Of a stretch of DNA of 33,624 nt, positions 1-33,624 are shown in pieces. The notes below the pieces were generated by a model. That model saw only the letters and a list, made by a program, of their open reading frames with translations, was not told where the DNA came from and ran no database searches. The DNA lies in contig PCWJ01000024.1 of the NCBI GenBank assembly GCA_002787295.1, positions 29,931 to 63,554 on the forward strand. Direction: 5' to 3'. A program made the position numbers and the translations under genes. Each line of letters opens with the position of its first letter. Position 1 is the stretch's first letter. This stretch comes from Candidatus Nealsonbacteria bacterium CG11_big_fil_rev_8_21_14_0_20_37_68. Its GTDB lineage: Bacteria > Patescibacteriota > Minisyncoccia > Minisyncoccales > GCA-002782225.

Positions 1-2054
1 TTCTTTGAGCATTTGATTTGTTTCCTTTTTGTTTCTACCAGTAAAGAACCGCATTTTGGACAGGTTTCATTAATGGGTTTATCCCATAAAGCAAAATCGC
101 ATTTTGGCCAATTGGAACAGCCATAAAATATTTTTCTCTTTTTAGTTCTTTTCTCCGTGATTTCTCCGCTTTTGCAGTTTGGACACTTAATGCCCAAAGT
201 ATTTTTTTCAAGGGACTCGGTGTATTTACACTTCGGGAATTTAGAACAGGCATAAAATTCTCCAAATTTCCCCAATCTGATTACCAAAGAAGCTTTGCAT
301 TTTGGACAGATTTTTTTAGTTGGTTTTTCGGTAAATTCTTTTTTAGAAACTTCCTCATATTTATGCTTCAGGTTTTCTTCGAAGGGGATATAAAATTCTT
401 GAATTATTGGCGTCCATTTTTTTGAACCTTTGGCAATTTCGTCAAGCGATTCCTCCATCTCGGCCGTAAATTTAATATCAACAATTTTTGGAAAGTGTTC
501 CACCAAAAGATCGTTAACTACGGTTCCAATTTCGGTTGGTTTAAATTTTCTATTTTCGTCTTTTTCAATATAATTTCTTTCCTGAACAGTAGATAATATC
601 GGAGCATAAGTTGAAGGTCTCCCAATTCCATTTTCCTCCAGAGCTTTAATTAGAGTGGCTTCTGAATAGCGAGGAGGGGGTTGAGTAAAATGTTGAGAAG
701 GGATTAATTTTAACAGCTCTAAAATTTCATCGTTTTCAAGCGGAGGCAGCTCGTTTTCTTCAAACTTGATTTGGTAAACCTTTAAAAAGCCATCAAATTT
801 CAAAATCTGTCCCGTTGCACGAAAGCCGTACCCCGCACCAGAACCTTCGGTTCGGTACGGGGCAGGATTTTTTGCCTCGATGTCAACAGTTGTTGAATCA
901 AAAATTGCCTGACCCATCTGGCACGCAATAAATCTTCGCCAAATTAAATCATAAAGTCGAAAACCTTGCTCATCTAATTTGGCTTTTAGTGTTTCTGGAG
1001 TTCCATCGGCAAAAGTCGGTCTTATTGCCTCATGGGCTTCTTGGACTCTACCTTTTGCCTTATATTTTCTCAAAAAGCCTGCCCAATAATTTTTGCCATA
1101 TTTTTCGGTAATAAATTTTTTAGCCGCAAATAAAGATAAATCAGAAAGATTTAGAGAATCTGTTCGGTGATACGTCGTTAGTCCTTTTTCATAAAGTTGT
1201 TGGGCAACCCCCATTGTAAATTTGGCTGGAAAATGAAATCTTTGCCAAGCTTCTTGTTGTAAAGTAGAAGTTGTAAAAGGCGGCAGGGGATTCCTTTTTA
1301 CCTCTTTTTTTTCAACGCTTTGAACTTTATATTCTGCTCCCTCCAGATCTTTTACAATTTCATCTGCCTCTTTTTTAGTTTTGATTCCCAGTTTCGGAAT
1401 AATTTTATCATCCTTTTTGACTAATATAGACTCAAACCAACGAGAAACGTTCTCGTTGGTTTTTTTGAGCTGGGCGATAATAGTCCAGTACTCTTGCGGT
1501 ATGAAATTTTGTATTTCTCGTTCGCGCTCAACAACTAACCTTACTGTCACCGATTGAACTCTTCCAGCAGAAAGACCCCTGGCTATTTTTTTCCATAAAA
1601 ATGGAGATAATTTATAGCCGACAATTCTATCCAAAATCCTTCTTGTTTGTTGAGCATCGACCAGATTCATATCAATTTTCCTTGGATTTTTAAGGGCTTG
1701 GTCAATTGCTGATTTGGTAATTTCATGAAAAACAATTCGCTGGTAAGGTTTTTCTCCGTCTAAATTCAAAATCTGAGCCAAATGCCAAGCAATGGCTTCG
1801 CCTTCCCGATCGGGATCAGTAGCCAAAATAGTGAGTTCGGCTTTTTGACTTTCCTTGGCTAAACTTTGAACAATCTTTTTAGCTTTTTCTGGGATAATAT
1901 ATTTTGGTTTAAAATTCTCTTCAATATCAATTCCAAGTTCATCTTCCGGTAAATCTCTAATGTGACCATAAGAAGAGAGAACCCGATATTTGGGACCCAG
2001 AAAATCCTGGAGAGTTCTTGATTTGGTTGGTGACTCAACGAGTATTAATTGCAT
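1..2054 (-). CDS. topA: DNA topoisomerase I (3' end runs off the window start)
   Basis: Absent from the ORF track because no stop codon lies inside the window. Hand translation of the minus strand from ATG 2054-2052 gives MQLILVESPTKSRTLQDFLGPKYRVLSSYGHIRDLPEDELGIDIE. It continues with TOPRIM DPDREGEAIAWH, the active-site Tyr region GLTTYHRTDS, then three C4 zinc ribbons (CPKCKAS..CSKFPKC, CPNCKSG..CSNWPKC, CPKCGS..). The start overlaps the dprA 3' end by 20 nt. Confidence 0.93.
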   Translation of the reverse strand, partial: MQLILVESPTKSRTLQDFLGPKYRVLSSYGHIRDLPEDELGIDIEENFKPKYIIPEKAKKIVQSLAKESQKAELTILATDPDREGEAIAWHLAQILNLDGEKPYQRIVFHEITKSAIDQALKNPRKIDMNLVDAQQTRRILDRIVGYKLSPFLWKKIARGLSAGRVQSVTVRLVVEREREIQNFIPQEYWTIIAQLKKTNENVSRWFESILVKKDDKIIPKLGIKTKKEADEIVKDLEGAEYKVQSVEKKEVKRNPLPPFTTSTLQQEAWQRFHFPAKFTMGVAQQLYEKGLTTYHRTDSLNLSDLSLFAAKKFITEKYGKNYWAGFLRKYKAKGRVQEAHEAIRPTFADGTPETLKAKLDEQGFRLYDLIWRRFIACQMGQAIFDSTTVDIEAKNPAPYRTEGSGAGYGFRATGQILKFDGFLKVYQIKFEENELPPLENDEILELLKLIPSQHFTQPPPRYSEATLIKALEENGIGRPSTYAPILSTVQERNYIEKDENRKFKPTEIGTVVNDLLVEHFPKIVDIKFTAEMEESLDEIAKGSKKWTPIIQEFYIPFEENLKHKYEEVSKKEFTEKPTKKICPKCKASLVIRLGKFGEFYACSKFPKCKYTESLEKNTLGIKCPNCKSGEITEKRTKKRKIFYGCSNWPKCDFALWDKPINETCPKCGSLLVETKRKQIKCSK
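831..862. repeat. GC-rich hairpin in-frame in topA
   Basis: CCCCGCACCAGAACC-ttc-GGTTCGGTACGGGG. The left end CCCGCACCAGA is identical to 14285-14295. Confidence 0.75.
1434..1462. repeat. 29-nt perfect palindrome in topA
   Basis: AAACCAACGAGAA-acg-TTCTCGTTGGTTT, with 13-bp arms. Confidence 0.85.
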
Positions 2055-5056: not shown

Positions 5057-5073
5057 CGGAGAACAGTTCTCCG
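5057..5073. terminator. Hairpin between convergent ligA and mfd
   Basis: CGGAGAAC-a-GTTCTCCG. On the minus strand it is followed by tcggTTTTATTTTA, so it fits best as the mfd terminator. Confidence 0.6.
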
Positions 5074-17482: not shown

Positions 17483-19078
17483 ATGACCAAATCGAAGATT
17501 TTCCTCTATTTTTGTCTTTCTTTTATTGGGGGAATATTTCTGAGTTCTACTATCTTTGTTCCTGCGCTGGGATTCTCGCTAGGTAGTAGAGTTTATCTCT
17601 TACTACCGGGTTTAATTTTGGGGATTTTGCTAATTTCGATACTTTGGCAATATAAAAAAATTGTTGTTATTGGATTTTGTATTCTATTTTTGGTTGCCGG
17701 AATTTACCGTCACCAACAAGCCGAATTAAAAATTATAAATAACGAATTAAAATCCCACAACGATACCGGCAAAGAGATTATTTTAACAGGGGTAATTTCA
17801 AAAGAAGCCGACATAAGGTCAAATAATATAAAACTAATAATAACACCTGAAGAAATTCAAAATGCCGCAAACCTTCAAAATGCCGAGAACCGTTCTCGGC
17901 ATTTTGAAGGTAGGGTTTTGGTTACAACTAATCGATATCCTGAATATCAATATGGGGATAAATTAAAAATTACCGGAGAATTAAAAGCTCCCATCGAATT
18001 CGAAGATTTTAATTATAAAGATTATTTAGCTAAAGATGGAATTTATTCGGTAATGTACTATCCCAAAATTAAGCTATTAGAAAGAGAAAAATCCATAGGT
18101 CCGACCTATGTAATTTACAGCCAAATTTTATCTTTTAAAAATAAGTTGATGGAAAGCATTTATCAAAATCTTTCTCCGCCCCAATCTTCAATTCTGGGAG
18201 CGGTAATTTTGGGAGATAAAAGAAAAATTTCTGATGAGTGGAAACAAAAACTAAACATTGTCGGGGTGAGACACATTACTGCCGTTTCCGGAATGCATGT
18301 AGCAATTTTAACTACTATTTTAATGACTCTGTTGCTTGGTCTTGGTTTTTGGCGGCAGCAGGCTTTTTATTTTTCAATAGTCTTTGTTGCTTTTTTTGTA
18401 ATTATGACCGGTCTTCAGCCTTCGGCAATAAGAGCCGGAATTATGGGAGGATTGTTTTTGCTGGCCCAATATTTGGGAAGGCAGAAATTTGCCACCAATG
18501 CTCTTTTGTTGGCGGCAGTGGTAATGTTGGCAATTAATCCCTTGCTTTTAAAATTAGATGTTGGTTTTCAGTTATCCTTTTTGGCAGTTCTGGGAATCAT
18601 TTATTTAATGCCTATTTTTCAATATTATTTTCGAAAGTGGTTATCACCAGAGTGGTTTCAAAAATGTTGGTGGCTAAGTTGGCTACCGATAAAATCTATC
18701 GGCGACATTTTGGCTATGACCCTATCCGCTCAAGTTTTCACCTTGCCGATTTTAATTTATAATTTTGGCTATATGTCTTTAGTGGCTCCGATAACCAACC
18801 TTTTAATAGTTCCGTTTTTGTCCTACATTATGGGATTGGGTTTTCTTTTTGGAATTTTTGGAATAATCTCCCAGTTTCTGGGTTGGGTTTTTTCCTGGCC
18901 AGCCTGGTTACTTTTAACCTACTTAACAAAAATAGTAGATTTCTTTTCTCAAATTCCTTTGGCTTTTATAACCATAGAAAATTTGCATTGGGCATGGTTA
19001 ATAATTGCCTATTTAATTTTGGGCTATTTTACTTGGCGAATATCGCAAAAGCAAAAATTAAAGTTTTTAAATTATTAA
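17483..19078 (+). CDS. comEC: ComEC/Rec2-family DNA uptake channel (no C-terminal metallo-beta-lactamase domain)
   Basis: 531 aa, polytopic. N-terminal OB-like region (GRVLVTT..YGDKLKITGELK) then the competence domain (GVRHITAVSGMHVAIL). Contains a 39-nt palindrome at 17872-17910. Confidence 0.85.
   Translation: MTKSKIFLYFCLSFIGGIFLSSTIFVPALGFSLGSRVYLLLPGLILGILLISILWQYKKIVVIGFCILFLVAGIYRHQQAELKIINNELKSHNDTGKEIILTGVISKEADIRSNNIKLIITPEEIQNAANLQNAENRSRHFEGRVLVTTNRYPEYQYGDKLKITGELKAPIEFEDFNYKDYLAKDGIYSVMYYPKIKLLEREKSIGPTYVIYSQILSFKNKLMESIYQNLSPPQSSILGAVILGDKRKISDEWKQKLNIVGVRHITAVSGMHVAILTTILMTLLLGLGFWRQQAFYFSIVFVAFFVIMTGLQPSAIRAGIMGGLFLLAQYLGRQKFATNALLLAAVVMLAINPLLLKLDVGFQLSFLAVLGIIYLMPIFQYYFRKWLSPEWFQKCWWLSWLPIKSIGDILAMTLSAQVFTLPILIYNFGYMSLVAPITNLLIVPFLSYIMGLGFLFGIFGIISQFLGWVFSWPAWLLLTYLTKIVDFFSQIPLAFITIENLHWAWLIIAYLILGYFTWRISQKQKLKFLNY
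17872..17910. repeat. 39-nt perfect palindrome in comEC
   Basis: CCTTCAAAATGCCGAGAAC-c-GTTCTCGGCATTTTGAAGG, with 19-bp arms. TTCAAAATGCCG is also present as a direct repeat at 17856-17867. Confidence 0.9.
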
Positions 19079-32487: not shown

Positions 32488-32504
32488 CCGGGAAGTCTTC
32501 CCGG
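32488..32504. repeat. REP-like palindrome, left of the RAYT gene
   Basis: 8-bp arms CCGGGAAG/CTTCCCGG around one central t. Lies 8 nt after the stop of the upstream gene. Confidence 0.85.
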
Positions 32505-32646
32505 TAGCAGTAGGCAGCATATATCTAAATCTAATATAGAAAATAATTTTTTACTTTTGGGCTTGACAGCTCTTTTTAATTCCCCAAGATAACAACTGTT
32601 GATTATTTTTTAGAAGTTAGCTAAATTGCTAATTGAGATAGTTTCC

Positions 32647-32682
32647 GGGATGGCTCCCCGGCACGTGCCGGGGAGCCATCCC
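32647..32682. repeat. Perfect 36-bp palindrome
   Basis: GGGATGGCTCCCCGGCAC|GTGCCGGGGAGCCATCCC, ending 33 nt upstream of the RAYT ATG. Confidence 0.9.
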
Positions 32683-32714
32683 AACTCTAGAGAAGCCATC
32701 TCTGTAATAAACCT

Positions 32715-33452
32715 ATGCCAATAAAACATCCACAATTTGTTAATGGAGAAATCTATCACATTATAGTTAGGGGAATTGCCGGTCAAAAAACTTTTTTAGA
32801 CGATAAAGATCGTCTGAGATATCTTTTTAATTTGTATAAATTTAATAATAAAAATATAGTTATTCGTAATCCCTCTTACCGGGAAGCCATCCCGGTAGTC
32901 TACCGGGATGGCTTCCCGGTGCTGTTGGAGACAGAAAGGGAAAAGCCAAGAGATTTATTAATTGAACTTTTAGCCGTTTGTTTAGTGCCCAATCATATTC
33001 ATTTATTAGTTCGTCAGGCTGACGACGGCGGTGTTTCTTTATTTTTCCAAAAAATGGGCGGTTATGCCAGTTATTTTAATAAAAAATACCAAAGATTTGG
33101 TTCTTTATTTCAGCGACCATTTAAAGCTATTCATATCAAAACTAATGACCAATTATTAATTGTCACTACCTATATTCATTTAAATTTAATTGATTTAATT
33201 GAGCCAAACTGGAAAATTAAGGGTATTTCCGATCCTCAAAAGATTATGGATTTTTTAGAAACTTATCCTTGGTCAAGCTATCCTTATTATTTGGGAAAAT
33301 CAAATCTTTCTTGGCTAATTAATTCTGATTTTCTAAATAAAATTTTAAAAAGGCCCGAGGATTTTCGGAATTTTGTTAAGGCTCGGATTTTTCAGAAAAC
33401 TGAACTAAAAAATTTTTTAAAGAAGACCAAAGAAATTGAGAAGTTTTTCTGA
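32715..33452 (+). CDS. REP-associated tyrosine transposase-like protein (HUH / Y1, IS200-like fold)
   Basis: 245 aa. N-terminal YHIIVRG, HUH motif in PNHIHLLV, and a Tyr ~57 aa downstream in TTYIHLN. No TnpB partner. Flanked and interrupted by related palindromes. Confidence 0.8.
   Translation: MPIKHPQFVNGEIYHIIVRGIAGQKTFLDDKDRLRYLFNLYKFNNKNIVIRNPSYREAIPVVYRDGFPVLLETEREKPRDLLIELLAVCLVPNHIHLLVRQADDGGVSLFFQKMGGYASYFNKKYQRFGSLFQRPFKAIHIKTNDQLLIVTTYIHLNLIDLIEPNWKIKGISDPQKIMDFLETYPWSSYPYYLGKSNLSWLINSDFLNKILKRPEDFRNFVKARIFQKTELKNFLKKTKEIEKFF
32878..32920. repeat. 43-nt palindrome inside the RAYT CDS
   Basis: ACCGGGAAGCCATCCCGGTA-gtc-TACCGGGATGGCTTCCCGGT, with 20-bp perfect arms. Each arm is itself a small hairpin. 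Confidence 0.9.
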
Positions 33453-33455
33453 TAG

Positions 33456-33480
33456 TCTACCGGGAAGACTTCCCGGTAGA
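33456..33480. repeat. REP-like palindrome, right of the RAYT gene
   Basis: 12-bp perfect arms TCTACCGGGAAG/CTTCCCGGTAGA around a central a. Starts 4 nt after the RAYT stop. Confidence 0.88.
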
Positions 33481-33624
33481 ATTTGTCAACAGGTTATCCA
33501 CAGCTAATGTACTTTTGGACTGTTTCTATTTGAAAATTAAGTGAATTTAAGTTGATTTGACAAATTTCTTTGAACCATTAATATCAAAATTGTCTGATTT
33601 TAAACTCTTAAAACCTAAAAAAAA

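What the first reader, a model, noticed from the sequence alone, without database searches (positions are those of the whole stretch)
32488..33480. RAYT-like HUH/Y1 transposase gene bracketed by inverted copies of one palindrome
The 245-aa protein has the IS200-like layout: YHIIVRG, HUH as HIH in PNHIHLLV, and a Tyr in TTYIHLN about 57 aa later. It has no TnpB or second ORF. It is flanked by CCGGGAAG-t-CTTCCCGGTAG (32488-32507) and TCTACCGGGAAG-a-CTTCCCGGTAGA (33456-33480). The complementary central base and the flanks show opposite orientation. A single-copy Y1 gene flanked by inverted REPs is the defining arrangement of REP-associated tyrosine transposases. The string CCCGGTAG recurs at three hairpin feet (32500-32507, 32891-32898, 33472-33479).
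Basis: partly seen in the sequence, partly recalled or inferred. Interest (0 to 1): 0.8.

Follow-up and report, generated by a model that had tools for sequence, protein, structure and literature searches.

The report
RAYT-like gene with cognate REP palindromes
This is a domesticated "hairpin-cutting" transposase gene of an ultra-small (Patescibacteria) bacterium that sits at a fixed chromosomal position and carries copies of its own private DNA palindrome before, inside and after its coding sequence. This layout turns out to be shared by a large, undescribed family of such genes.

Summary
ORF 32715-33452 (245 aa) passes Pfam Y1_Tnp, has HUH (H94, H96) and Tyr153, and its AlphaFold model matches the E. 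coli REP-associated tyrosine transposase (4ER8) best.

It is flanked by CCGGGA-N5-TCCCGG palindromes in opposite orientation.

Orthologues (58-77% identity) sit at the same syntenic position (ClpB, Trypsin_2, gene, ~200-aa protein, LTD giant protein). Each has its own stem variant at all three places, with compensatory changes.

In 70 of 81 related Patescibacteria loci the same leader, intragenic (+165 to +215 nt) and 3' layout recurs. Each gene has a private palindrome, and its divergence tracks protein divergence.

Dispersed cognate copies exist in relatives at low density, some in-frame inside unrelated genes. A 76-78% relative has the identical 48-nt doublet at three or more other loci. 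None lies in the other ~42 kb available for this genome.

Verdict: a REPtron-type RAYT/REP system. It is a new variant (CPR family, intragenic site before HUH) of a known kind. Nuclease activity and copy number in this genome are untested.

The parts
32488..32507 (.). Far-upstream REP-like hairpin CCGGGA-AGTCT-TCCCGG plus a GTAG foot. It lies 8 nt after the stop codon of the upstream Trypsin_2 gene.
   Evidence: dG -7.4 kcal/mol, z -3.6. Orthologues have an equivalent site 130-225 nt upstream of the ATG.
32645..32684 (.). Leader REP doublet (REPIN-like). The 36-nt perfect palindrome 32647-32682 is made of two inverted CCGGGr-N5-yCCC(GG) units.
   Evidence: dG -22.9 kcal/mol, z -8.3.
32689..32705 (+). 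Degenerate leader hairpin TAGAGA-AGCCA-TCTCTG, ending 9 nt upstream of the ATG. It is at the position of the single leader hairpin of orthologues L013 and L015.
   Evidence: family D1; dG -2.9 kcal/mol; weak.
32715..33452 (+). RAYT-like Y1/HUH gene, 245 aa.
   Evidence: - ORF confirmed.
- Pfam Y1_Tnp match.
- More than 370 full-length homologues.
- AlphaFold model with pLDDT 92.6.
- Foldseek top hit 4er8_A.
32994..33002 (+). HUH motif codons (H94-I95-H96 in PNHIHLLV).
   Evidence: H94 and H96 are invariant in 120 homologues.
33171..33173 (+). Codon of the candidate catalytic Tyr153 (YIHLN). The family consensus is YIHxNP; this protein has L at the P position.
   Evidence: Y153 and N157 are invariant.
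32877..32920 (.). Intragenic REP doublet: TACCGGGA-AGCCA-TCCCGGTA, then GTC, then TACCGGGA-TGGCT-TCCCGGT. The 43-nt perfect palindrome spans 32878-32920. It is in frame and encodes residues 55-69 in the variable insert between helix A and strand 2.
   Evidence: - (dG -27 kcal/mol, z -12.6).
- The site is conserved in 61 related loci.
- These residues are modelled as a small beta-hairpin.
33440..33480 (.). 3' REP. The 25-nt palindrome spans 33456-33480 and starts 4 nt after the stop codon. It is preceded by a decayed left half that overlaps the last codons and the stop. The region 33440-33477 is 79% identical to the intragenic doublet 32883-32920.
   Evidence: D3, I1, I25; dG -11.6 kcal/mol, z -5.3.
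33493..33503 (+). GTTATCCACAG, a perfect DnaA-box consensus, 13 nt downstream of the 3' hairpin. It may belong to the element or to the promoter region of the next gene.
   Evidence: - Conserved as GTT(A/T)T(C/T)CACAG in L011, L013, L015, L016 and L114.
- TTATCCACA is 12-fold enriched within 200 nt of family genes.
- Boxes elsewhere are not linked to hairpins.

Best explanation
The locus is a REPtron. It is a vertically inherited, fixed-position gene for a RAYT-type (TnpA_REP-like) Y1 HUH single-strand DNA nuclease/ligase, surrounded and interrupted by its own cognate REP or REP-doublet palindromes.

Inferred mechanism, by homology to E. coli TnpA_REP and IS608 TnpA:
1. The hairpins extrude on single-stranded DNA, for example on the lagging-strand template.
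2. The protein recognises the GGGA-N5-TCCC apical stem-loop together with the co-varying basal stem and foot.
3. It cleaves and rejoins next to the hairpin through a Tyr153 5'-phosphotyrosine intermediate, with metal held by H94 and H96.
4. This occasionally copies the palindrome to new sites, including in-frame positions in permissive protein loops.

The copy inside the gene's own variable loop is an ancient resident of that site. It is kept matched to the flanking copies, either as one more substrate or as an autoregulatory site.

Shown here: the fold, the motifs, the synteny, the three-site layout, compensatory and concerted hairpin evolution, co-divergence with the protein, and low-copy dispersal in relatives.

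Inferred only: binding, cleavage, mobilisation and any regulatory role.
For: Protein:
- Pfam Y1_Tnp is above its gathering score, and all 120 homologues match it.
- H94, H96, Y153 and N157 are invariant.
- The AlphaFold model has pLDDT 92.6. Its best PDB match is 4er8_A, a RAYT bound to a REP hairpin, at E = 9e-7 and TM 0.66 on the target. IS608 and ISDra2 TnpA follow.

Inheritance:
- Eight orthologous loci at 58-77% identity keep the order ClpB, Trypsin_2, gene, ~200-aa protein, LTD giant protein.

Hairpins in orthologues:
- Each orthologue carries one stem variant at the leader, intragenic and 3' sites: TACCGGGA, GCTCGGGA, CTACTCGGGA, TGTCCGAGA, CCAGGGA or CGACGGGA.
- On 24 hairpins, 87% of cells pair and 7 of 10 pairs show double changes. 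No shuffle out of 500 reaches the observed covariation.

Family-wide pattern:
- 70 of 81 loci have a locus-specific palindrome at the leader, at +165 to +215 nt, and 3-60 nt past the stop.
- Paralogues within one MAG have different palindromes.
- Palindrome similarity rises with protein identity. Arms are identical in 4% of pairs at 40-50% identity and in 73% of pairs above 80%.
- The intragenic hairpin is read in different frames in different subfamilies (REQFS against ENSSR). It is therefore the DNA, not the peptide, that is conserved.

Dispersal:
- Full cognate copies lie far from the gene in L016, L032, L041, L059, L061 and L063, several of them inside large ORFs.
- The identical 48-nt doublet of a 76-78% relative occurs at three or more other intergenic loci from the same samples.
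- A family-type palindrome sits in a presence/absence indel site of ComEC in this very window.
Against: - No cognate copy occurs outside the 1-kb locus in the ~42 kb of this genome that could be read. Dispersal here is therefore unproven.
- The density of dispersed copies in relatives is low, roughly 20 true copies in 808 kb of flanks. This is far below classical REP systems.
- NCBIfam REP_Tyr_transpos scores 27 bits against a cut-off of 80.
- By its motifs (NHIH, FQ, YIHLNP, WSSY, ~240 aa) the family resembles subclass 2.1 of Quentin et al. (PMC6006769). That subclass was reported to have no REPs.
- The protein has YIHLNL where the family has YIHLNP.
- No activity data exist.
- The contigs carrying dispersed doublets could not be assigned to the same genome as the relative's gene. 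The only links are shared samples, shared G+C content and an identical sequence.
Confidence: 0.7

Rival explanations
1. The gene encodes a domesticated Y1 protein whose hairpins are private cis-sites only. The protein binds its own leader, coding and 3' hairpins, on DNA or on the mRNA, for autoregulation or for some host function. It does not mobilise REPs. The few distant copies would be relics.
For: - There are no cognate copies in the other ~42 kb of this genome.
- The positions of the three sites relative to the ORF are constant in 70 of 81 loci.
- All three sites would lie within a transcript if the TTGACA-type promoter between 32488 and 32645 is used (sequence inspection).
- Copy density in relatives is low.
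Against: - Exact cognate hairpins occur kilobases away, in intergenic DNA and in frame inside unrelated ORFs.
- ComEC homologues show presence/absence of a family-type palindrome at one site.
- Autoregulation alone does not explain how three copies stay identical while diverging between lineages.
Confidence: 0.15
2. The palindromes are RNA-level elements unrelated to the enzyme's catalysis. They would act as a 5'-UTR structure controlling translation, an intragenic attenuator or stabiliser, and a 3' terminator or mRNA-stabilising stem, as proposed for some REPs.
For: - The hairpins lie just upstream of the ATG and just after the stop codon.
- G-U-compatible pairs occur in a minority of cells.
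- The leader loop (AGCCA) is complementary to the intragenic and 3' loops (UGGCU) in orthologues.
Against: - None of the palindromes has a T-tail, and none was called terminator-like.
- There is no Rfam match.
- The same sequence is needed at all sites and co-diverges with the protein.
- Copies occur in either orientation and inside unrelated genes.
Confidence: 0.08
3. The locus is an active IS200-like insertion sequence. The flanking hairpins would be its left and right ends, and the whole gene would transpose.
For: - It has a Y1_Tnp domain and subterminal hairpins.
- Some MAGs carry 2-5 family members.
- In a few paralogues, such as L081, the two flanking copies are direct repeats.
Against: - The chromosomal position is the same in species whose proteins are only 58-77% identical.
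- Paralogues within one MAG are only 40-50% related to the query and have different hairpins.
- The flanking copies are inverted in the orthologues.
- The Tyr motif is Y-x3-N(P), typical of class 2 (RAYT), and not Y-x3-Q as in IS200.
- There is no tnpB.
Confidence: 0.03

Closest known systems
E. coli TnpA_REP / RAYT (YafM) and its REPtron (PDB 4ER8; Nunvar 2010, Ton-Hoang 2012, Messing 2012, cited from my own knowledge and via PMC6006769)
   Same: - It is the best structural match.
- It has HUH plus a single Tyr.
- It is a low-copy, vertically inherited gene.
- It is flanked by inverted REPs and REP doublets, and the hairpin has a GTAG-type foot.
   Different: - The window protein is 245 aa, with an ~80-residue helical C-terminal extension and a 28-55-residue variable insert before the HUH motif. 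The E. coli protein is 165 aa.
- Sequence similarity is too low for NCBI's equivalog model.
- GTAG lies at the 3' foot, with CTAC at the 5' foot.
- Cognate copy number appears to be tens at most, not hundreds.
- A cognate hairpin lies inside the gene.
TnpA_Y1 subclass 2.4 of Quentin et al. 2018 (Bertels group 4; Cyanobacteria and Bacteroidetes)
   Same: REPs are inserted in frame within the tnpA_REP gene itself, and the palindromes are 'double foot' REPs.
   Different: [quoted passage not shown] Here the site lies between helix A and strand 2, before HuH, at a constant position across the family.
- The subclass 2.4 motifs (WQ, YIxNNP, ~194 aa) do not match.
TnpA_Y1 subclass 2.1 / Bertels group 1 / TIRYT
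   Same: Length (~238 aa) and motifs agree with the published table: NHxH, FQ, Y[IV]HLNP, a conserved SS after the Tyr helix (WSSY here), and a helical C-terminal tail. This was judged by inspection only.
   Different: - That subclass was reported to have no REP-like sequences nearby.
- It often has Bac_DnaA_C or HTH tails. None of the 120 members here hits Bac_DnaA_C.
- Membership was not tested with the authors' profiles.
IS200/IS605 TnpA (IS608, ISDra2)
   Same: It shares the fold and chemistry, and it recognises subterminal ssDNA hairpins.
   Different: Those are multi-copy mobile elements, often with tnpB, with a Y-x3-Q motif and hairpins in the same orientation at both ends. None of this applies here.
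Rickettsia palindromic elements and REP insertions in coding genes (my own knowledge; REP insertions in genes are also noted in PMC6006769)
   Same: Short palindromes are inserted in frame into permissive loops of unrelated proteins. Examples here are ComEC in this window and the large ORFs in L016, L059 and L061.
   Different: Here each palindrome family has an identifiable cognate Y1 gene.

Membership tests
Y1 HUH transposase superfamily (Pfam PF01797) | Profile match above the curated threshold | tested here: met
   The score is 29.9 bits against a cut-off of 23, over residues 74-155. All 120 aligned homologues match. The N-terminal strand is missed by the profile because of the insert.
Y1 HUH transposase superfamily (Pfam PF01797) | HUH motif and one catalytic Tyr on the following helix | tested here: met
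   H94, H96 and Y153 are invariant in 120 sequences. Y153 lies on helix 144-161 of the model.
Y1 HUH transposase superfamily (Pfam PF01797) | TnpA/RAYT fold | tested here: met
   Foldseek hits are 4er8_A (E = 9e-7), 2a6o, 2vjv and 2xm3.
RAYT / TnpA_REP (REPtron) | Low-copy gene, vertically inherited, not an insertion sequence | tested here: met
   Synteny is conserved in eight orthologues at 58-77% identity. Copy number in this genome itself is not testable, because only ~43 kb is held.
RAYT / TnpA_REP (REPtron) | Gene flanked by REP or REPIN palindromes in inverted orientation | tested here: met
   Searches show this for the window. In orthologues with 5-nt asymmetric loops the upstream copy is AGCCA and the 3' copy is TGGCT.
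RAYT / TnpA_REP (REPtron) | Cognate REPs dispersed in the same genome | tested here: inconclusive
   There are none in the other ~42 kb of this genome. They are present at low density in relatives. The window's own contigs were not in the scanned metagenome collection.
RAYT / TnpA_REP (REPtron) | GT[AG]G guide tetranucleotide at the 5' foot of the hairpin | tested here: inconclusive
   The palindrome reads CTAC-stem-loop-stem-GTAG. GTAG is at the 3' foot on either strand, unlike the canonical 5' position. Several paralogues have GTAA or other feet.
RAYT / TnpA_REP (REPtron) | NCBIfam NF047646 REP_Tyr_transpos equivalog score | tested here: not met
   The score is 27.1 bits against a cut-off of 80.
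RAYT / TnpA_REP (REPtron) | Sequence-specific binding and cleavage of the REP hairpin on ssDNA | not testable with these tools
   This needs purified protein and oligonucleotides.
IS200/IS605 insertion sequence | Several near-identical copies, a Y-x3-Q motif, and often tnpB | tested here: not met
   The gene has a fixed position and divergent paralogues, the motif is YIHLN, and the neighbour has no Pfam hit.
TnpA_Y1 subclass 2.4 (REP inside tnpA_REP) | [quoted passage not shown] | tested here: not met
   The insert lies before HuH, at residues 55-69. The motifs are FQ and YIHLN.
TnpA_Y1 subclass 2.1 (Bertels group 1) | Match to the subclass profile; motifs NHxH, FQ or W[EQ], Y[IV]HLNP, SS; C-terminal HTH; no REPs | not tested
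   The motifs agree by eye with Table 1 of PMC6006769. The authors' HMMs were not available. The 'no REPs' property does not hold here.

The most novel reading that the evidence does not exclude
A Patescibacteria-wide family of RAYT-like genes has an obligatory three-site architecture. The family holds at least 730 clusters at 50% identity. Each gene's private palindrome sits in the 5' leader, at one fixed place inside the coding sequence and just past the stop codon, and the three copies are kept identical while co-diverging with the protein. On this reading the intragenic site is a functional cis-element and not an accidental REP insertion. It could be a self-targeting, autoregulatory or copy-correction site of a domesticated ssDNA nuclease. 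In a subset of loci it may be coupled to an adjacent DnaA-box-like GTTATCCACAG motif. That would be a mode of transposase-substrate co-evolution not described for REP/RAYT systems.
Probability: 0.3. Interest if true: 0.75.

Novelty: new variant of a known kind. Interest (0 to 1): 0.55.

Why it matters
REP/RAYT systems are the standard example of a domesticated bacterial transposase living with its own non-autonomous repeats. So far they are known almost only from Proteobacteria, Cyanobacteria and Bacteroidetes.

This locus extends the same logic to the streamlined ~1-Mb genomes of the Candidate Phyla Radiation. There it takes a minimal, low-copy form: each gene has a private hairpin whose stem co-varies at three sites. 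That gives a natural data set of about 70 protein-hairpin pairs for working out how Y1 enzymes read hairpins.

The conserved intragenic site offers a direct handle on how a RAYT and its REPs stay matched. It also helps explain short in-frame palindromic inserts in CPR proteins such as ComEC here, which can confuse annotation and alignment.

Tried and rejected
1. Dispersal within the window. Pattern searches with mismatches found nothing outside 32488-33480.

2. Metagenome pattern scan. The window's own contigs are not in that collection, so the scan could not count copies in this genome. It did recover a close relative and its dispersed doublets.

3. Terminator reading. None of the palindromes has a T-tail.

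4. Known RNA family. There are no Rfam hits above noise.

5. DnaA-domain idea. The GTTATCCACAG box next to the 3' hairpin suggested a DnaA-box-binding C-terminal domain, as in subclass 2.1.2.
- No member hits Bac_DnaA_C.
- TTATCCACA boxes elsewhere in these genomes are not next to hairpins.
- The box may simply be a common regulatory or DnaA motif, and the link is left open.

6. PDB sequence search. It gave only weak ISDra2 and IS200 matches, so the structure comparison was needed.

7. Strain comparison as evidence of recent REP activity. L118 (98% identical protein) is 99.8% identical up to ~33419 and then switches to the 3' end of the 77% relative. This could be recombination or a chimeric metagenome assembly, so I do not use it as evidence.

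8. Literature. No paper in the held library links RAYT or REPIN with CPR or Patescibacteria.
Full report
**1. The observation**

The window holds an ATG-started ORF at 32715..33452 on the + strand, 245 aa.

The two flanking palindromes are at the stated coordinates. As an inverted pair they are 20/20 complementary. As a direct pair they match 19/20. In this window alone, orientation therefore rests on the central base.

The motif is far from chance. CCGGGAAGNCTTCCCGG with up to 3 mismatches has 5 matches against 0.06 expected, and all 5 lie within 1 kb.

All copies share the core CCGGGA-N5-TCCCGG, and there are five sites:
- a far-upstream hairpin (32488-32507);
- a 36-nt perfect palindrome in the leader (32647-32682), which is a REP doublet;
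- a weak hairpin just before the ATG (32689-32705);
- a 43-nt perfect palindrome inside the ORF (32878-32920), a doublet that encodes REAIPVVYRDGFP;
- the 3' palindrome (33456-33480), whose decayed left half overlaps the last codons.

These are documented. As ssDNA the sites fold at -7.4, -22.9, -2.9, -27.0 and -11.6 kcal/mol. The four strong ones have z-scores of -3.6 to -12.6 against shuffles.

**2. The protein**

- Pfam Y1_Tnp is passed at 29.9 bits against a cut-off of 23. The match covers residues 74-155 only, because a variable insert separates strand 1 from the rest.
- NCBI's REP_Tyr_transpos equivalog model is well below threshold, at 27 against 80 bits.
- More than 370 full-length homologues of 230-250 aa exist. 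The sources that name them call them only 'transposase' of Patescibacteria or Parcubacteria.
- A profile search of 1.84 billion cluster representatives finds 730 at E <= 1e-30 and about 10,000 at E <= 1e-10.
- H94, H96, Y153 and N157 are invariant.
- An AlphaFold model built on 120 sequences is confident, with pLDDT 92.6.
- Its best PDB match is 4er8_A, the E. coli REP-associated tyrosine transposase bound to a REP hairpin (E = 9e-7). The IS608, ISDra2 and IS200 TnpA structures follow.
- The residues encoded by the intragenic palindrome (55-69) form a small beta-hairpin. It sits in the 28-55-residue variable insert between helix A and strand 2.
- Residues 166-244 form an extra helical tail. 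No member of the family hits Bac_DnaA_C or any other Pfam domain there.

**3. Inheritance**

The exact protein occurs in many metagenome samples, always in the same context. Orthologues at 58-77% identity all lie between ClpB plus a Trypsin_2 protease gene and a ~200-aa protein gene plus a giant LTD-domain protein gene. These orthologues are L011/L014, L013, L015, L016/L116, L106, L114, L115 and L117.

This is long-term vertical inheritance at a fixed site. It is the hallmark of RAYTs and not of insertion sequences (PMC5581495). The downstream gene has no Pfam hit and is not tnpB.

**4. The hairpins co-evolve with the gene**

In each orthologue the same hairpin type appears in the leader, inside the ORF at +165 to +195 nt, and just after the stop codon. 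The apical part, GGGA-AGCCA-TCCC, is conserved. The basal stem differs between genomes and changes at all sites together:

| Locus | Basal stem |
|---|---|
| window, L106, L011 | TACCGGGA |
| L013 | GCTCGGGA |
| L016 | CTACTCGGGA |
| L015 | TGTCCGAGA |
| L114 | CCAGGGA |
| L115 | CGACGGGA |

I aligned 24 of these hairpins and counted pairs:
- 87% of cells pair.
- 7 of 10 pairs have changes on both sides.
- No shuffle out of 500 reaches the observed covariation, and all slid registers score far lower.

One caveat applies. The inner four pairs were partly fixed by the regular expression used to collect the sites, so the outer six pairs carry the test.

Where the 5-nt loop is asymmetric, the upstream copy reads AGCCA and the intragenic and 3' copies read TGGCT.

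**5. The layout is general**

A scan of GTDB species representatives returned 79 loci, mostly from Nealsonbacteria, Parcubacteria and Paceibacterota MAGs. Several MAGs carry 2-5 divergent paralogues.

- In 70 of 81 loci a locus-specific palindrome recurs at three places: 20-60 nt upstream of the ATG, at +165 to +215 nt inside the ORF, and 3-60 nt after the stop.
- The cores differ from locus to locus: GAGAAC|GTTCTC, GAGGTC|GACCTC, GAGACC|GGTCTC, GAAGCC|GGCTTC and others.
- Paralogues within one MAG have different cores.
- Core similarity follows protein identity outside the insert. Arms are identical in 4% of pairs at 40-50% identity and in 73% of pairs above 80%.
- The intragenic core is translated in different frames in different subfamilies, for example REQFS against ENSSR. 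Lineages that lost the perfect palindrome keep a decayed remnant.

Conservation therefore acts on the nucleic acid and not on the peptide, and the site is ancestral to the family.

**6. Dispersal**

Within the window plus L001, about 43 kb of this genome, the cognate palindrome occurs only at the locus.

Across 808 kb of flanks of the related loci, a 13-mer core search with up to 2 mismatches gave 42 distant hits. About 20 of these are full cognate hairpins: L016 (2), L032, L041 (4), L059, L061 and L063 (7). Some are inside ORFs of 800-1900 aa.

A metagenome scan for TACCGGGAWGNCWTCCCGGTA did not include the window's own contigs. It did recover the gene of a 76-78% relative (L096, L102, L106, L107). 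Its intragenic 48-nt doublet occurs identically in intergenic DNA at three or more other loci from the same samples (L097/L098/L101/L104/L105, L111 and L094). A tandem pair occurs in L100. Assignment of those contigs to one genome rests only on shared samples, shared G+C content and sequence identity.

The window itself contains orphan palindromes with cores typical of paralogous family members:
- 1434-1462, in topA;
- 2226-2252, in dprA;
- 5057-5073, intergenic;
- 17871-17911, in comEC;
- 18094-18110, also in comEC.

The comEC palindrome lies in a presence/absence indel site. Many homologues encode EN.SR there (GAGAACnGTTCTCG), and others lack the segment.

These palindromes therefore behave as low-copy mobile REP-like elements that can insert in frame.

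**7. Mechanism**

The best-supported reading is a REPtron: a domesticated Y1 HUH enzyme with its cognate REP or REPIN hairpins.

By homology to E. coli TnpA_REP and IS608 TnpA, the protein should bind the hairpin on single-stranded DNA. It should read the apical stem-loop together with the co-varying base and foot. It should cut and rejoin through Tyr153, with metal held by H94 and H96. This step is established knowledge for those homologues and an inference for this protein.

How the copies are kept identical is not shown. RAYT-mediated replacement, gene conversion and selection are all possible.

The rivals are weaker:
- A cis-only, autoregulatory role fits the low copy number but not the distant copies or the in-frame insertions.
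- An RNA-only role is undercut by the absence of terminator features and of any Rfam match. The private, co-diverging sequences also argue against it.
- An active IS200-like element is contradicted by synteny, by the divergent paralogues and by the Y-x3-N motif.

**8. Comparison with known systems**

Quentin et al. 2018 (PMC6006769) divide TnpA_Y1 proteins into 12 subclasses.

In-frame REP insertions inside the tnpA_REP gene, and 'double-foot' REPs, are described there as unique to subclass 2.4. [quoted passage not shown]

The present family has the phenomenon at a different and constant position, before HuH. By inspection its motifs (NHIH, FQ, YIHLNP, WSSY, ~240 aa, helical tail) resemble subclass 2.1, which was reported to lack REPs. 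I could not score the authors' profiles, so subclass membership is untested.

Bertels et al. 2017 (PMC5581495) report only about 12-14 genome-wide occurrences of flanking 16-mers for groups 1 and 4. Low copy number is therefore not unprecedented.

No paper in the held library connects RAYTs or REPINs with CPR or Patescibacteria.

**9. Verdict**

The locus is a new variant of a known kind. It is a CPR-wide RAYT-like family in which each gene carries its private palindrome in the leader, inside the coding sequence and after the stop codon.

Three things remain open: enzymatic activity, copy number in this genome, and the role of the intragenic site and of the adjacent GTTATCCACAG box.

Noticed in passing
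window 17871-17911 (in ORF 17483..19078, ComEC/Rec2): A 41-nt perfect palindrome, ACCTTCAAAATGCCGAGAAC-c-GTTCTCGGCATTTTGAAGGT, lies inside comEC and encodes ..NLQNAENRSRHFEG.. Its core is the type used by paralogous family members. Homologues either lack the segment or carry EN.SR at the same site, so it is an in-frame palindromic insertion hot spot.
   Followed up: yes
window 1434-1462 (topA, minus strand); 2226-2252 (dprA, minus strand); 5057-5073 (intergenic); 18094-18110 (comEC): There are further short G+C-rich palindromes with family-type cores: ACGAGAA..TTCTCGT, GTCGGAAC..GTTCCGAC, CGGAGAACaGTTCTCCG and CATAGGTCcGACCTATG. They may be orphan REP-like copies belonging to paralogous Y1 genes elsewhere in this genome.
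   Followed up: partly
window 33493-33503; also L011, L013, L015, L016, L032, L070, L073, L081, L084, L114, L117 next to their hairpins: GTTATCCACAG, a perfect DnaA-box consensus, follows the 3' hairpin. TTATCCACA is about 12-fold enriched within 200 nt of family genes (11 in 31.6 kb against 27 in 960 kb). The same extended motif also occurs elsewhere without hairpins. Its function is unknown.
   Followed up: partly
L118 3700-3804 compared with window 33419-33500: A strain with a 98% identical protein is 99.8% identical through the leader and the 5' part of the gene. It then switches abruptly to the C-terminus and 3' REP doublet of the 77% relative. This is either recombination at the REP-bearing 3' end or a chimeric metagenome assembly.
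   Followed up: partly
L016 10781-10812; L025, L088, L047, L077, L075 flanks: Tandem repeats of one hairpin arm or foot lie directly beside many cognate hairpins, for example gcgagtagtt three times in L016 and ctcccaataat repeats in L088. They look like slippage or repeated cut-and-join footprints.
   Followed up: no
L094 2090-2788 (minus strand) and 1940-1990: A distant 232-aa Y1 paralogue (27% identity to the query; MPRPLRITLPNLPFHILNRGNN..) lies about 100 nt from a copy of the 48-nt REP doublet of the 76-78% relative.
   Followed up: no
window 33186-33188 (codon 158): This protein and its 98% relative have Leu where the family Tyr motif has Pro (YIHLNL against YIHxNP). The effect on activity is unknown.
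   Followed up: no
window 32877-32920 / residues 55-69: The DNA palindrome encodes two peptide halves related by reverse-complement translation (REAIP and RDGFP). AlphaFold models them as a beta-hairpin. In L011 the pair is REVIP/RDNFP, a compensatory change visible at the protein level.
   Followed up: partly
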